From positions 2,106,636 to 2,170,635 of the forward strand of contig CBDFLI010000002.1 of assembly GCA_965249115.1 (NCBI GenBank): a stretch of DNA of 64,000 bases, read 5' to 3'. The position numbers and the translations under genes are program-made. The notes under the pieces are model-generated. The model worked only from the letters and a program-made list of their open reading frames with translations, made no database searches and had not been told where the DNA came from. Source of the DNA: Dehalococcoidia bacterium (GTDB lineage: Bacteria > Chloroflexota > Dehalococcoidia > Lucifugimonadales > QGNO01). Positions 7,791 through 13,110 of the stretch are shown piece after piece; positions within the stretch are counted from its first letter, which is position 1; the number at the start of each line of letters is the position of its first letter.

Positions 7791-8239
7791 TCAAACTTCA
7801 CGCTCTTCAGAACCACAGGTCAGGTGGCAGCTATATTTGAGAACGACAGGCCTCCTCCATGCATAATCTTACAACTGAACGCGCGCAATTCATTCTTCAG
7901 ACGGTGGCTCCCGGCTATGAACTCGTTTCTGTGCAGTCCGCTTTGGCAGCTTCGCCAACGACGTGCAAGTCACTTGGGGATTCTCCGGAGTAAACGCGGG
8001 AGATGACCGATTTTGGTCAGCTTTTGCGAGCTTGCCAGCACTTAGTCCATGAGCATCCACACCGTAGTGTGTTTGATAGTAATTTTTCATGAACAGGCCC
8101 CTTGCTGGGACCGGCCAGAGCATCAATAACCGGGAACCAATGCGTATCTGGGTCTTGTCATGCATCCAGTTAGGCGGTGTACTCCTATAGCAGTAGGGGA
8201 AGGCAAGGATGCTTGAGTTTCCATCCTGGAGACCGGCCT

Positions 8240-9403
8240 ATGCAGTTATCAAACAGATGGCACCGCGATCCCTGGTTCTGGGTTATTGTCTTGGGCGGCC
8301 TGGGCCACGTACTGACTCATTACGCCAGCTATATTCCGGCAGTCCGTCCAATAATAAGAGGGCTGCCATATTTCAACCTTCACGCTCTGCACGAGGCTGA
8401 GTTTCTGATTATCATAGCCCTGGCAGCCTATCGTTTCAGGCTCAAGGGTGGCCTCGCAACCATTGTGGGCACGGCTCTCGCCTCCATTCCCTTTGTTCTG
8501 ACACCATACATTTTCGGAAGGGATCCCAGGTCCGGAGAGGTCCGGGACCTGATTATTCAAACATTGCTCACCCTTGTTATTGGAGGCTTTATCGTCTTCC
8601 TGAACGAGCTTCACGCCCGGCAAAGGGAACGCAGCGAGAAGTTACTGAAGGACTTGCAGGACAAACAGGAACAGCTGATAAGGACTGACAGGCTTGCGAC
8701 GGCTGGTCGGTTAGCCGCCAGCGTAGCCCATGATGTGAGAACCCCCCTCATGGCCATCATAGGCTTTTCTCAACTGTTGTTGGAGAGGAACATGGACGAT
8801 GATGTCAGGAAAGACCTGACCGTCATAATGAACGAAGCAGAACGCGCTTCAACAATCACCGAAGGTCTGCTCTCCTTCTCCGGACAGCGACCAACCAGCA
8901 GGGCTTCCATGTCAGTGAACGAAGCTGTGGAAGGCGTTCTGAACCTGTGGTCTCCTCAACTCAAGGCCAATAATATACAGGTAGTTCTGAAACTGCATCC
9001 GGACTTACCCGGCACATGGGCCGATTACCAGCAGATTAAACAGGTGCTTTTAAACCTAGTGGTGAACGCAGAGCAGGCCATGACCGAGGCCCACAATAGA
9101 GGTAAGCTGACCGTATCCACCCAGCACGTGGACTCTGTCATCCGTACAACCGTATCAGACGACGGGCCGGGTATTCCAAAGCACCTGATATCCAGAATAT
9201 TTGACTCCTTTTATACCACCAAGCGGCCAGGGGAGGGGACGGGTCTTGGTCTCAGCATTTGCCACAGGATCATCACGGAACATGGAGGAGTCATTCAGAT
9301 AGAGGCTCAGGAGGACAAAGGAACAACCGTTGTCATTGACCTTCCTCTAAATAGTCAGGGTTTAGCTCTGTCGAACGGACGTCAGATACAGAGCGTGGCC
9401 TGA
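8240..9403 (+). CDS. Membrane-bound sensor histidine kinase (HisKA + HATPase_c)
   Basis: About 4 N-terminal hydrophobic segments; H box AHDVRTPL, N box LNLVVNAEQA, G1 DDGPGI, F box IFDSFYTTK, G2 GTGLGLSI. Confidence 0.92.
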   Translation: MQLSNRWHRDPWFWVIVLGGLGHVLTHYASYIPAVRPIIRGLPYFNLHALHEAEFLIIIALAAYRFRLKGGLATIVGTALASIPFVLTPYIFGRDPRSGEVRDLIIQTLLTLVIGGFIVFLNELHARQRERSEKLLKDLQDKQEQLIRTDRLATAGRLAASVAHDVRTPLMAIIGFSQLLLERNMDDDVRKDLTVIMNEAERASTITEGLLSFSGQRPTSRASMSVNEAVEGVLNLWSPQLKANNIQVVLKLHPDLPGTWADYQQIKQVLLNLVVNAEQAMTEAHNRGKLTVSTQHVDSVIRTTVSDDGPGIPKHLISRIFDSFYTTKRPGEGTGLGLSICHRIITEHGGVIQIEAQEDKGTTVVIDLPLNSQGLALSNGRQIQSVA

Positions 9404-9463: not shown

Positions 9464-9877
9464 CTACTGCCATACCCCCAGGATGCTGCCGCCAATGGCG
9501 AGGACCACCACCGGGTATCCGGCGTTAATCAAGAAGAGCTTCGTTGGTCTTCCCTCGAATTCGTACTGGCCTGCCATGGCGCTGGCTATGAACCCGATTC
9601 CCACAATGACGCCTATCACCAGTCCGTCCAGTAGCTCATCTGCTCCTGTGGCCTGGATTATGATGGCCAGTCCAAACACGGTCAGTACGGAGGCCACCAG
9701 GGCCATAATATAGGCCCGCACTGCGCGGCCTCCTCCTGGAAGCTCTTCCCTAGTCTTGCCTATGAGCGCCATCCACGGGTCTGCCAGTACCATGTACCAC
9801 AAGGCCCCACCGACGTACTGGACTACTATAGCAACCAGTATAGCTAAGTAGTTGAGATCACCGAAATCAATGTTCAT
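9464..9877 (-). CDS. DUF1761 family membrane protein
   Basis: NYLAILVA...GALWY...PWM...KLFLINAGY; 4 hydrophobic helices. Confidence 0.8.
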   Translation of the reverse strand: MNIDFGDLNYLAILVAIVVQYVGGALWYMVLADPWMALIGKTREELPGGGRAVRAYIMALVASVLTVFGLAIIIQATGADELLDGLVIGVIVGIGFIASAMAGQYEFEGRPTKLFLINAGYPVVVLAIGGSILGVWQ

Positions 9878-10118: not shown

Positions 10119-10886
10119 ATGGTTAAGAAGGCAGACGTGTGGGACCTGAGCGGTAAAGCAGCGCTGATAACCGGCGGCAGCAGAGGGCTTGGAAAGGCCA
10201 TCGTTCTGGAGTTGGCCAGGATGGGAGCGGACGTGGCCTACTGCTACAAGAAGGACACCCAAGCGGCCAAGGCCGTGGCGGACCAGGTGGAGGAGGAGAA
10301 TGGACGCAGGCCCTTCTTTATCCAGGCCGACATCACCGACGAAAAGGACAGGGCGCGACTGATGAAAGAGGCCCCGGACCAGCTTGGGGGGCTGCACGTC
10401 CTGGTGAACAACGCGGGGACCAGGGCTGACGGCGTGGCCATTAGAATGAACAGCGCATGGGACCAGGTGATTGACCTGGACCTCAACGCGCCTTTTAGAC
10501 TGGCCCAACACGCCCTTCGAATAATGATGAAGCAGTCCTGGGGAAGGATCATCAATATCGGCAGCATAGCCTCTCGCATCGGGCTTGGCGGACAGGCCAA
10601 CTACACGGCGGCCAAGGCGGGACTGGAGGGCCTAACCAGGTCCCTGGCCCAGGAGTACGGCAAGCGGGGTATCACAGTCAACACAGTGAACCCCGGGTTC
10701 ATGGAAACGGACCTCACCGGGGATGCCAGCCTGGAATTCAGGATGTCACTGATTGCCGGCGCTGCTATTCCTGAAACGCTGACCCCGGATGCCATAGCCA
10801 ACGTCGTCGCCTTCCTGGCGTCGGATGCCGCGTGGGCGATTACAGGCCAGAGCATAAACGTGGACGGCGGGCTGGTAAAGCTGTAA
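10119..10886 (+). CDS. fabG: 3-oxoacyl-ACP reductase-like SDR (FabG paralogue)
   Basis: TGGSRGLG, NNAG, YTAAK catalytic motif, VNPGFMETDLT, GQSINVDGG. Confidence 0.85.
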   Translation: MVKKADVWDLSGKAALITGGSRGLGKAIVLELARMGADVAYCYKKDTQAAKAVADQVEEENGRRPFFIQADITDEKDRARLMKEAPDQLGGLHVLVNNAGTRADGVAIRMNSAWDQVIDLDLNAPFRLAQHALRIMMKQSWGRIINIGSIASRIGLGGQANYTAAKAGLEGLTRSLAQEYGKRGITVNTVNPGFMETDLTGDASLEFRMSLIAGAAIPETLTPDAIANVVAFLASDAAWAITGQSINVDGGLVKL

Positions 10887-10917
10887 CGGGTCTGGTGCCA
10901 AGGATCAAAGGGTTCAC

Positions 10918-12174
10918 ATGCAGAATGCTCGCAAAGTCGTAGTGACCGGATTGGGTACTGTTAATCCCGTTGGACTGGGCGTCCGGGAGACCTGGGAGAA
11001 CCTACTGGCGGGAAACAGTGGCATAAGACGTATCCAGGCCTTTGACCCCGAAGAGTGGGGCTTAAGCACACACATAGCCGGTGAGGTAAAGGGCTTTGAT
11101 CCTGAGGAGTATATGGACCGGAAAGAGGCTCGAAGGGTTGACCGGTTCAGTCAGCTGGCTTTGGCTGCCGCCAAGGAGGCCGTAGCCCAGTCACAACTGA
11201 AGCTGGAAGGCGAGACCCGGTACCAGGTGGGTACAATCATAGCCAGCGGAGTAGGTGGGATAAGTACCATCATAGACCAGTCTCACGTGCTCAGGGACCG
11301 GGGCACCAGGCGAGTGAGTCCCTTCACCGTACCCATGATGATGCCCAATGCGGCGTCGGGGATCGTATCCATACACATGGGCGCATGGGGCCCCAACTTC
11401 GCCACGGCATCGGCCTGCGCTTCGTCGGCGGACTCCCTCGGAATAGCGTTGGATATGGTCCGCAACGGACGCGTCAAGGCCATGATAGCTGGTGGAAGCG
11501 AGTCCACCATAGTTCCGATATGTATCGCCTCCTTTGAGCAGGCCCAGGCCCTTACCAAAAGCCACAACGCCGCTCCAGAGAAGGCCTCACGCCCCTTTGA
11601 CCTGGACAGGGACGGGTTTGTGTTATCCGAAGGCGCCGCTGTCCTGGTCTTGGAGGATGAGGAGTTCGCCAGGGCACGGGGCGCTCAAGTCCTGGCGGAG
11701 TTTTCCGGTTACGGAGCGGGGGCGGACGGATACCACATTACGGCGCCTGAACCCCAGGGCCGGGGGGCCGTCAAGGCAATGGCGGACGCCCTGCGAGATG
11801 CCGGTGAAAACGGCGACGCCGTGACCTACATAAACGCCCACGGCACGTCCACACAGCTCAATGATAAGGTGGAGACAATAGCTATTAACCAGGTATTTGG
11901 TGAAGCGGCTGCCGGGATTCCCGTGAGTTCAACCAAGTCCATGACAGGACACCTGGCAGGTGCGGCCGGCGCCCTGGAAGCAGTCGTCTCCGTCAAAGTA
12001 GTAGAGACCGGGTGGGCGCCACCCACTATCAACTACGATACCCCTGACCCGGAATGTTCCCTGGACTACATCCCCTGGAAAGCCCGCGAGATCAAGCAGG
12101 GACTGGCAATGTCCAACTCGTTCGGGTTCGGTGGGCACAGTTCGTGTCTGGTATTCCGTGGATACGAAAACTAG
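10918..12174 (+). CDS. fabF: Beta-ketoacyl-ACP synthase II
   Basis: Cys-His-His triad in TACASS, NAHGTST and KSMTGHLAGA; SNSFGFGG. Confidence 0.93.
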   Translation: MQNARKVVVTGLGTVNPVGLGVRETWENLLAGNSGIRRIQAFDPEEWGLSTHIAGEVKGFDPEEYMDRKEARRVDRFSQLALAAAKEAVAQSQLKLEGETRYQVGTIIASGVGGISTIIDQSHVLRDRGTRRVSPFTVPMMMPNAASGIVSIHMGAWGPNFATASACASSADSLGIALDMVRNGRVKAMIAGGSESTIVPICIASFEQAQALTKSHNAAPEKASRPFDLDRDGFVLSEGAAVLVLEDEEFARARGAQVLAEFSGYGAGADGYHITAPEPQGRGAVKAMADALRDAGENGDAVTYINAHGTSTQLNDKVETIAINQVFGEAAAGIPVSSTKSMTGHLAGAAGALEAVVSVKVVETGWAPPTINYDTPDPECSLDYIPWKAREIKQGLAMSNSFGFGGHSSCLVFRGYEN

Positions 12175-12246
12175 GCTGGTTGCGATAAGTCAGATGGATA
12201 GCATATTATGTCAGACAACCTGGGCCGCACAGGTGAGGATTATAGA

Positions 12247-13110
12247 ATGACGGTTCAAACGACAGAATTTCTCTATGAGCCGTTTGCCGAGACTGCAGAA
12301 TACAGAACGGTAAACGGGACCATAGTCCGTGCGTGGATAGAGTCCATGGTTAACAAAGGCTCCAAGGAAGTGGGCCGCCTGCTGGACATCGCTACGGGCG
12401 TAGGCACCATGGTCCAGATTTTCCTCGAAAACCTGCCCAAGCAGTGGAAACAACCAACGGTACTGTGCCTTGATCAGAGTGAGGAGGCCCTGCAGCAGGC
12501 GAAAGCGTCTCTGGAGCCGCAGGTAGAGAACCTGGAACTGGTCCTCGCTCAGGCGGAGAATCTGAAGCTTCCGGCCAATAGCGTTGATGTTGCCATATGG
12601 GGCAACGGCATTCATTACCTGGCTTCCGAAGGCCAGGAGAAGGCGTTGCGAGCGATAAAAAAGGCACTTAAGAAGGGTGGCTGGCTGTGTTTCAACTCCG
12701 CGTTTTACGCAGAGTCACGTCCACCGGAGACGCTACCGTTCTACAGGGCACAGATCAAGCATGCGGTTGAGTACTTGCACGCTCGGGGCCTGGTCAGAGA
12801 CCGTAGCGAGGCCCGGCCCGTGGCCAGTACCTTCATGCCCAGGGTACACTATGAGGACCTGCTGACACGGGTGGGGTTCAAGGTAGAAGAGGTCAAAGAA
12901 GTAGCCATACGCGTCAGGAAGACCGCATGGGAGCATATCAGCAGCTTTCAACATTATGCGGCCGGTGCTCTACACGGCTACCGTGCCGACGCCGCCGCAG
13001 AAGCCATGAGGGAGTCGGTGGTACCTGCCCTGGAGGAACACGGGAGCAGAGACGCCCAGGGTAATCTGACCATTTCCCGGAACTGGCTGGCCATCAGCGC
13101 TCGCGCATAG
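12247..13110 (+). CDS. Class I SAM-dependent methyltransferase
   Basis: Motif I LLDIATGVG, LCLDQS, AENLKLPANSVDV, ALKKGGWLCF; start after GAGGA. Confidence 0.82.
   Translation: MTVQTTEFLYEPFAETAEYRTVNGTIVRAWIESMVNKGSKEVGRLLDIATGVGTMVQIFLENLPKQWKQPTVLCLDQSEEALQQAKASLEPQVENLELVLAQAENLKLPANSVDVAIWGNGIHYLASEGQEKALRAIKKALKKGGWLCFNSAFYAESRPPETLPFYRAQIKHAVEYLHARGLVRDRSEARPVASTFMPRVHYEDLLTRVGFKVEEVKEVAIRVRKTAWEHISSFQHYAAGALHGYRADAAAEAMRESVVPALEEHGSRDAQGNLTISRNWLAISARA

What the first reader, a model, noticed from the sequence alone, without database searches (positions are those of the whole stretch)
10119..13110. fabG-fabF-SAM methyltransferase operon lacking acpP: candidate modified-lipid pathway
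Seen: three tightly spaced co-oriented genes. FabF has the full Cys-His-His triad. FabG is divergent (NNAGTRADG, GLGGQANYTAAK). Only 31 nt separate fabG and fabF, where acpP normally sits. Known: core FAS II clusters read fabD-fabG-acpP-fabF with no methyltransferase. Inference: a secondary elongation-reduction-methylation module for methyl-branched or otherwise tailored acyl chains, or a type II PKS-like product.
Basis: partly seen in the sequence, partly recalled or inferred. Interest (0 to 1): 0.55.

Follow-up and report, generated by a model that had tools for sequence, protein, structure and literature searches.

The report
Conserved FabG-FabF-methyltransferase lipid gene cassette
An uncultured Dehalococcoidia bacterium carries an extra pair of fatty-acid chain-building genes locked to an uncharacterised methyltransferase, a cassette that recurs in several bacterial phyla and probably makes a methyl-modified lipid nobody has yet identified.

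Summary
Three co-oriented genes encode a divergent FabG-like reductase (10119-10886), a bona fide KAS II FabF (10918-12174) and a class I SAM methyltransferase (12208-13110, likely true start 12247). No acpP lies in the 31-nt gap.

They are extra copies. The genome also has a canonical fabG beside plsX, a second fabF, and fabD-nusB-acpP. It has no FabH and no FabZ.

The triplet is conserved in all informative genomes of the family, with different flanks. It is rare elsewhere in Chloroflexota (1 of 400). The same FabF clade with the same methyltransferase also occurs in Spirochaetota and Trueperaceae genomes. Variants keep the methyltransferase beside FabG2 alone, beside FabI alone, or beside an unrelated ketosynthase.

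The methyltransferase belongs to a small family with no characterised member. Fold searches do not reveal its substrate. A BioC-like role is unlikely because there is no BioB. A type II PKS is unlikely.

Against a strict coupling, one derived clade (Dadabacteria) places the methyltransferase after queC-queE, and one CPR genome with it lacks FabF and ACP.

Best reading (about 0.45): an accessory FAS II round whose beta-keto or beta-hydroxy acyl intermediate is methylated. The chemistry is not shown.

The parts
10119..10886 (+). fabG2: an accessory 3-oxoacyl-ACP-reductase-like SDR of 255 aa
   Evidence: Pfam adh_short_C2 and adh_short. TIGR01830 scores 246 bits, below the 298 cut-off, while NF009466 scores 227.5, above 222. 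Ser149, Tyr162 and Lys166 and the TGGSRGLG cofactor motif are present. It is 42% identical to the canonical FabG on C1. Orthologues at 64-71% identity occur only in the cassette-bearing family among 40 relatives.
10918..12174 (+). fabF of 'clade C': a KAS II of 418 aa, always found next to the methyltransferase
   Evidence: TIGR03150 scores 569 bits against a cut-off of 494. Cys167, His308, His345 and GFGG are present. The best solved relatives are all FabF. It is 54% identical to the genome's other FabF. It forms a separate clade with SH-aLRT 100, in which all 15 members are methyltransferase-adjacent.
12208..13110 (+). Class I SAM-dependent methyltransferase of an uncharacterised family. The ORF opens at 12208, but the likely start is 12247, giving 287 aa.
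   Evidence: Only generic families match: Methyltransf_25, _11 and _12. BioC scores 36 bits and UbiE 47 bits, both far below their cut-offs. The SAM motif DIATGVG and the invariant WGNGIHY are present. The AlphaFold model has pLDDT 91. Only 18 representative clusters reach E<=1e-30 among 1.84 billion. The start at 12247 is supported by an SD sequence and by homologue lengths.

Best explanation
The three genes form one accessory lipid-tailoring cassette that works on top of the organism's scattered, FabH-less housekeeping FAS II. It borrows the single AcpP, FabD, the MaoC-type dehydratase and FabI from elsewhere in the genome.

Proposed steps (all inferred):
1. The clade-C FabF performs a dedicated condensation on an acyl-ACP.
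2. The methyltransferase modifies the intermediate that exists only between the KS and KR steps or just after them. This would be either C-methylation of the acidic alpha-carbon of the 3-oxoacyl-ACP, or O-methylation of the 3-hydroxy or enol oxygen.
3. The dedicated reductase FabG2 handles the unusual 3-oxo substrate.
4. The product re-enters normal elongation, giving a methyl-branched or methoxylated fatty acyl chain.

Shown: the gene identities, their status as extra copies, and the conserved linkage across lineages. Inferred: operon expression, the ACP-bound substrate, and the kind and position of methylation.
For: - Extra copies. The genome has a canonical fabG (343 bits) next to plsX and a MaoC hotdog pair, a second fabF (605 bits), fabD-nusB-acpP and a FabI-like gene elsewhere.
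- A second reductase is unusual. FabG2 orthologues occur only in the cassette family (12 of 12). The other 28 related genomes show only the canonical FabG.
- Conserved linkage. fabG2-fabF-methyltransferase is present in 11 of 11 informative family genomes from 3 genera, with different flanks. It is also in a second family of the order (G401).
- The same FabF clade sits next to the same methyltransferase in two 'Spirochaetales' MAGs, another Spirochaetota MAG, a Trueperaceae chromosome and MAG GCA_041643295.1, there near plsY.
- The link holds when ascertained from FabF. All 3 informative metagenome loci at >=67% identity carry the methyltransferase, and 0 of 75 loci at <=56% do.
- The methyltransferase stays with FAS II genes when the cassette is rearranged: fabI<>fabG2-MT (L219, L222), fabI<>MT (L220) and fabI<>fabG2-fabF-MT (L066, L218).
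- A 44%-identical family member sits 3 nt after a non-orthologous ketosynthase (L227).
- On the methyltransferase tree rooted on 30%-identity paralogues, the FabF-adjacent members are basal and the FabF-less Dadabacteria type is one derived clade.
- The family is small, so it is not a universal housekeeping enzyme.
- Gaps to the upstream gene are short, from 2 to 72 nt.
- The fold is a capped small-molecule methyltransferase. Matches include the ACP-substrate enzyme BioC and PKS C-methyltransferase domains.
Against: - Orthologues at about 50% identity in 20 Dadabacteria/Thermodesulfobacteriota genomes follow queC-queE instead. The two such genomes searched have a single FabF at 50-51% identity beside acpP and no clade-C FabF.
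- A 53%-identical orthologue sits in a 0.7-Mb CPR genome in which neither FabF nor any PP-binding/ACP gene was found. The enzyme therefore cannot strictly need this KS and KR, or even an ACP-bound substrate.
- Many of the 'independent' lineages may descend from one laterally spread block, so adjacency may be partly inherited rather than selected.
- In the family, clade-C FabF mostly coexists with clade B only, while other families have A plus B. The KS may therefore simply replace a housekeeping paralogue.
- A promoter-like site lies just upstream of the methyltransferase gene.
- No fold or sequence match singles out a substrate.
- No fused KS, KR or ACP forms were found.
- No product is known.
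Confidence: 0.45

Rival explanations
1. Housekeeping KS/KR plus a passenger gene. The whole order runs a FabH-less FAS II with two KAS II paralogues. In this family, the laterally acquired clade-C FabF (with FabG2) simply took over the job of the second paralogue, for example priming by malonyl-ACP decarboxylation. The methyltransferase came along in the transferred block and does something unrelated to lipids.
For: - No FabH was found in 41 of 41 genomes of the order, and 39 of 41 have two or more FabF.
- Other families carry clades A plus B, while this family carries B plus C. Only G001 still holds A.
- FabF is entirely ordinary in sequence.
- Methyltransferase orthologues live without the KS and KR in Dadabacteria, and in a CPR genome in which no FabF or ACP gene was found.
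- In G001 the methyltransferase carries an in-frame TGA at a conserved Trp codon, so it can be lost.
Against: - A second dedicated reductase is not needed for a mere KS swap, and no other family has one.
- Trueperaceae keeps its own acpP-fabF and still carries clade-C fabF with the methyltransferase.
- The methyltransferase stays beside FabG2 or FabI even where the KS is gone, and a distant member pairs with an unrelated KS.
- Linkage is retained at 50-75% protein identity, with changing flanks.
Confidence: 0.3
2. BioC-like priming. The methyltransferase O-methylates the free carboxyl of malonyl-ACP so that the dedicated KS and KR can elongate it. The product would be a methyl-ester-capped dicarboxylate such as pimeloyl-ACP methyl ester, or another omega-carboxy lipid.
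For: - The best Foldseek match is Acinetobacter BioC (8x8j, E 1e-15, TM 0.53/0.63).
- BioC is among the NCBIfam hits (E 7.6e-9).
- BioC is the one established case of a class I methyltransferase that feeds FAS II (general knowledge; papers listed).
Against: - TIGR02072 scores 36 bits against a cut-off of 185, and seven other loci in the genome score higher.
- No BioB is found in this 96%-complete genome; the best score is 32 bits against a cut-off of 225.
- No esterase partner lies in the cassette.
Confidence: 0.06
3. A type II polyketide or aryl-polyene-like secondary-metabolite cluster.
For: A discrete KS, a KR and a tailoring methyltransferase sit together. The FabG-like protein gives a weak hit to the flexirubin FlxB reductase (194 bits against a cut-off of 340).
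Against: - There is no chain-length factor, ACP, cyclase/aromatase, dehydratase, thioesterase or transporter within the conserved block, and the flanks vary.
- The KS passes the FabF equivalog cut-off, and its nearest solved relatives are all FabF. The actinorhodin KS is far weaker.
Confidence: 0.03

Closest known systems
BioC (malonyl-ACP O-methyltransferase) working with FAS II enzymes in pimeloyl-ACP synthesis
   Same: It is a free-standing class I SAM methyltransferase whose action is tied to FabF/FabB, FabG and FabI cycles. It is the top Foldseek match, and the size and capped Rossmann fold are similar.
   Different: The score is far below the BioC family cut-off. There is no biotin synthase in the genome. 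BioC uses the housekeeping KS and KR, whereas here a dedicated KS and KR travel with the methyltransferase.
C- and O-methyltransferase domains of modular PKS (KS-MT-KR logic; e.g. the CurJ C-MT 5thy and the LovB C-MeT 7cpx)
   Different: Here the proteins are discrete type II enzymes, and the KS is a true FabF. No fused forms were found. The match is no better than to many O-, N- and S-methyltransferases. The catalytic residues of PKS methyltransferases could not be mapped with these tools.
Accessory FabF/FabG paralogues of proteobacteria (e.g. Pseudomonas putida FabF2, Ralstonia solanacearum FabG2; papers PMC8319022 and PMC4618531 listed)
   Same: These are extra KAS II and KR copies that sit beside a housekeeping set and adjust fatty-acid composition.
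   Different: Those paralogues are not linked to a methyltransferase and are not part of a cassette shared between phyla.
Lipid methylases acting on finished unsaturated acyl chains (CFA synthase, BfaB/UfaA1 for 10-methyl stearate, UfaM)
   Same: They are SAM-dependent enzymes that make methyl-branched or modified fatty acids.
   Different: They belong to the CMAS family, which did not match here. They act on phospholipid-bound olefins and do not need a dedicated KS and KR.

Membership tests
KAS II / FabF (TIGR03150) | Whole-protein score above the equivalog cut-off | tested here: met
   569.1 bits against a cut-off of 493.75
KAS II / FabF (TIGR03150) | Cys-His-His catalytic triad and GFGG gating loop | tested here: met
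   Cys167, His308, His345 and GFGG at residue 403
FabG, 3-oxoacyl-ACP reductase | Score above the equivalog cut-off (TIGR01830) | tested here: not met
   245.9 bits against a cut-off of 297.75. The genome's other copy on C1 scores 343.5.
FabG, 3-oxoacyl-ACP reductase | FabG subfamily model, SDR Ser-Tyr-Lys residues and the glycine-rich cofactor motif | tested here: met
   NF009466 scores 227.5 against 222. Ser149, Tyr162, Lys166 and TGGSRGLG are present. All top solved relatives are FabG.
Class I SAM-dependent methyltransferase | Rossmann fold with motif I (D-x-G/A-x-G-x-G) and an acidic residue at the end of strand 2 | tested here: met
BioC (TIGR02072) | Score above the family cut-off | tested here: not met
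   35.7 bits against a cut-off of 184.95
BioC (TIGR02072) | A biotin pathway (BioB) in the same genome | tested here: not met
   The best TIGR00433 match scores 31.8 bits against a cut-off of 225 in a 96%-complete genome.
CFA synthase / mycolic acid methyltransferase (CMAS, PF02353) | Match to the CMAS family | tested here: not met
   PF02353 is not among the Pfam families at E<=0.001.
Type II polyketide synthase | KS-alpha/KS-beta (CLF) pair with a dedicated ACP and cyclases in the cluster | tested here: not met
   There is a single KS of FabF type. No second KS, ACP or cyclase lies in the conserved block or its flanks.
PKS-type C-methyltransferase | Catalytic His-Glu dyad in the positions seen in solved PKS C-methyltransferases | not testable with these tools

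The most novel reading that the evidence does not exclude
This is a free-standing, type II counterpart of the methylating PKS module. A mobile KS-KR-methyltransferase cassette inserts a methyl branch or a methoxy group during one dedicated FAS II elongation round. That would define a new enzyme family and a new route to mid-chain methyl-branched or methoxy fatty acids in marine Dehalococcoidia, Spirochaetota and Trueperaceae. The link to unassigned branched-lipid biomarkers rests on my own background knowledge and was not tested here.
Probability: 0.3. Interest if true: 0.75.

Novelty: new variant of a known kind. Interest (0 to 1): 0.55.

Why it matters
Methyl-branched and methoxylated fatty acids are widely used as biomarkers, but many have no known producer or pathway. 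All established bacterial routes use one of three strategies:
- branched primers;
- CMAS-type methylation of finished unsaturated chains;
- PKS modules.

A discrete methyltransferase acting inside the type II elongation cycle, with its own ketosynthase and reductase, would be a fourth route. The cassette is only three genes, which makes it readily testable. It could also serve as a portable tool for making branched oleochemicals.

The cassette also marks lateral exchange of lipid genes between uncultured marine phyla. It sits in a lineage whose whole FAS II is unusual, with no FabH, no FabZ and two KAS II paralogues.

Tried and rejected
- **BioC/pimelate reading.** Rejected as the main reading: there is no BioB, and the BioC score is far below the cut-off.
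- **Type II PKS.** Rejected.
- **Substrate from sequence.** PDB sequence and profile searches matched only the Rossmann core. The protein-atlas feature search gave only unnamed methyltransferase clusters.
- **Fused forms.** A search for longer proteins joining this methyltransferase to KS, KR or ACP found none. This is weak evidence.
- **30%-identity paralogues.** Those in the same order sit after DHDPS-family genes and say nothing about this family.
- **Literature.** Searches found no description of this cassette or of lipid synthesis in these Dehalococcoidia. The ladderane paper mentions methyltransferases only in an unrelated Kuenenia operon.
- **Earlier scan notes.** None concern this locus.
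- **Complex prediction.** Not run. I do not claim that the proteins bind each other, and neighbouring genes alone do not justify the job.
- **Short contigs.** Contexts of the more distant family members P0125 and P0130 lay on contigs too short to be informative.
Full report
**What is in the window**

ORF listing gives three co-oriented genes at 10119-10886, 10918-12174 and 12208-13110.

- The first is an SDR. Its best models are all FabG. It scores 246 bits on the equivalog TIGR01830, below the 298 cut-off, but passes the FabG subfamily model NF009466.
- The second gene is a true KAS II. It scores 569 bits on TIGR03150 (cut-off 494), has Cys167, His308 and His345, and its best solved relatives are all FabF.
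- The third matches only generic class I SAM methyltransferase families. UbiE and BioC score 47 and 36 bits, far below their cut-offs.
- Its real start is probably 12247. A GGTGAGGA sequence lies 8 nt upstream, and nearly all homologues are 285-300 residues long.
- The gaps are 31 nt and 33 nt (72 nt from the later start). No acpP lies in them.

**Are these the only copies?**

No. The window lies in a 2.73-Mb, two-contig genome (96% complete). Close relatives are labelled Dehalococcoidia. Elsewhere the genome has:

- a higher-scoring fabF next to recJ (605 bits);
- a canonical fabG (343 bits) directly after plsX and a pair of MaoC-type hotdog genes on the smaller contig;
- fabD-nusB-acpP;
- a FabI-like reductase.

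No FabH and no FabZ/FabA were found. FAS II genes are therefore scattered, and the missing acpP between fabG and fabF is not odd in itself. The real point is that the window's pair is a second KS and a second KR.

**Conservation of the triplet**

- Among 12 genomes of the same family (3 genera), all have the methyltransferase at 55-65% identity.
- All 11 informative genomes have fabF and the fabG 3' end immediately upstream. The twelfth is cut by contig ends.
- Full fabG-fabF-methyltransferase blocks are seen in the named Dehalococcoidia MAGs, while the flanking genes differ from those in the window.
- FabG2 orthologues (64-71%) occur only in this family. The other 28 genomes of the order show only the canonical FabG at 37-44%.
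- In an even sample of 400 other Chloroflexota genomes, one has the methyltransferase. It carries the same triplet.

**The FabF tree**

Every genome searched in the order lacks FabH, and 39 of 41 have at least two FabF. A tree of 65 FabF sequences gives three clades:

- B, found in all genomes, including this genome's other copy;
- A, the second copy in other families, next to a Mur-ligase-like gene;
- C, in which all 15 members are methyltransferase-adjacent (SH-aLRT 100, long stem).

Clade C contains this family plus two 'Spirochaetales' MAGs and a Trueperaceae chromosome. This family is B plus C, and one member (G001) still has A as well.

Clade C was found through the methyltransferase, so I also searched metagenomes with FabF alone.

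- Five loci were at least 67% identical. The three with enough flank carry fabG-fabF-methyltransferase.
- None of the 75 loci at 56% identity or less has the methyltransferase.
- Two of the three informative loci appear to duplicate lineages already seen. L139 is the G401 contig. L141 gives the same identity values as L066, though its sequence was not compared directly. L140 matches L139 in the same way.
- The independent sample is therefore small.

**Wider contexts of the methyltransferase**

| Locus or group | Arrangement |
|---|---|
| Trueperaceae | ndk-fabF-MT, with a separate acpP-fabF elsewhere |
| Spirochaetota L066, L218 | fabI<>fabG2-fabF-MT, with a fatty-acid desaturase nearby in L218 |
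| L219, L222 | fabI<>fabG2-MT, no KS |
| L220 | fabI<>MT only |
| L221 | plsY...fabF-MT |
| L227 | a 44%-identical member, 3 nt after a ketosynthase only 30-37% identical to any FabF here |

The fabI-like genes in these loci are orthologous to one another.

Against this:

- Twenty Dadabacteria/Thermodesulfobacteriota loci have queC-queE-MT and no cassette KS or KR. The two such genomes searched have a single FabF at 50-51% identity beside acpP.
- A CPR (Wildermuthbacteria) genome of 0.7 Mb has a 53%-identical copy, but no FabF or PP-binding gene was found in it.

On a methyltransferase tree rooted with 30%-identity paralogues, the FabF-adjacent members are basal and paraphyletic. The Dadabacteria type forms one derived, well-supported clade, and the CPR copy is a single tip. 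The simplest reading is that linkage to FAS II genes is ancestral for the family and was lost once or twice.

**What the methyltransferase is**

- The alignment of 32 members is 60% identical on average, with an intact SAM motif.
- The model is confident (pLDDT 91).
- Foldseek puts Acinetobacter BioC first (E 1e-15), but TM scores are only 0.5-0.7.
- Profile searches of solved structures align only the Rossmann core.
- No member of the family is characterised.
- In a library of 1.84 billion representatives, only 18 clusters reach E<=1e-30. This is a small family, not a universal housekeeping enzyme.
- No fused forms were found.

**Weighing the explanations**

*BioC-like role.* This is the one textbook case of a class I methyltransferase coupled to FAS II. 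The genome has no biotin synthase, and seven other loci in the genome match BioC better. I give it about 0.06.

*Type II PKS.* It lacks every defining partner. I give it about 0.03.

*KS swap with a passenger methyltransferase.* This reading explains the A/C replacement pattern and the Dadabacteria and CPR copies. It does not explain:
- why a second reductase is present only here;
- why Trueperaceae keeps its own acpP-fabF as well;
- why the methyltransferase remains beside FabG2, FabI or an unrelated KS when the block is rearranged.

I give it about 0.3.

*Lipid-tailoring unit.* I favour this at about 0.45. The cassette holds exactly the enzymes that make and consume the 3-oxoacyl intermediate. 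It lacks a dehydratase and an enoyl reductase, which is the logic of a methylating PKS module. That analogy is inference. Whether the methyl goes on carbon or on oxygen, and on which chain, is unknown.

**Novelty**

I found no description of this cassette or family in the searchable literature or in earlier notes of this scan. It is best classed as a new variant of a known kind: accessory FAS II paralogues plus a tailoring methyltransferase. It could become a new route to branched or methoxy fatty acids if the chemistry is borne out.

Noticed in passing
Whole genome G000 and 40 relatives; L071:6993-9611: The whole order appears to run an atypical FAS II. No FabH was found in 41 of 41 genomes. 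No FabZ/FabA was found in this genome. Nearly every genome has two KAS II paralogues. A pair of MaoC-type hotdog genes sits directly upstream of plsX-fabG and is probably a HadAB-like dehydratase. How synthesis is primed is open.
   Followed up: partly
L007:6113-7909 (G000:C2:1869113-1870909): The gene order is fabD-nusB-acpP. The only good acyl carrier protein gene is separated from fabD by the transcription factor nusB and is not next to any fabG or fabF.
   Followed up: no
L029:1501-2358 (genome G001): The methyltransferase copy in G001 has an in-frame TGA exactly at the nearly invariant Trp67 codon. This is either a pseudogene or an assembly error. G001 is also the only family member that still carries a clade-A FabF.
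   Followed up: partly
L046-L065 (Dadabacteria/Thermodesulfobacteriota MAGs): Orthologues of the methyltransferase follow queC and a QueE-like radical SAM gene on the same strand. Two methylmalonyl-CoA mutase genes lie upstream, and Sir2 and ThyX lie downstream. This conserved, non-lipid neighbourhood is unexplained.
   Followed up: partly
L103, L105, L106, L114, L120 (other families of the order): The clade-A FabF of other families is always immediately preceded by a Mur-ligase-like gene (Mur_ligase_M and Mur_ligase_C domains) on the same strand. This is an unusual partner for a ketosynthase.
   Followed up: no
window 9464-9877 (- strand) and 8177-9403 (+ strand): A DUF1761 membrane protein is transcribed divergently from fabG2, and a histidine kinase lies upstream of it. 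Neither was found next to the cassette in relatives, so they are probably unrelated to it.
   Followed up: partly
L221:5972-6634: In MAG GCA_041643295.1, a second, shorter class I methyltransferase (220 aa) directly follows the cassette methyltransferase.
   Followed up: no
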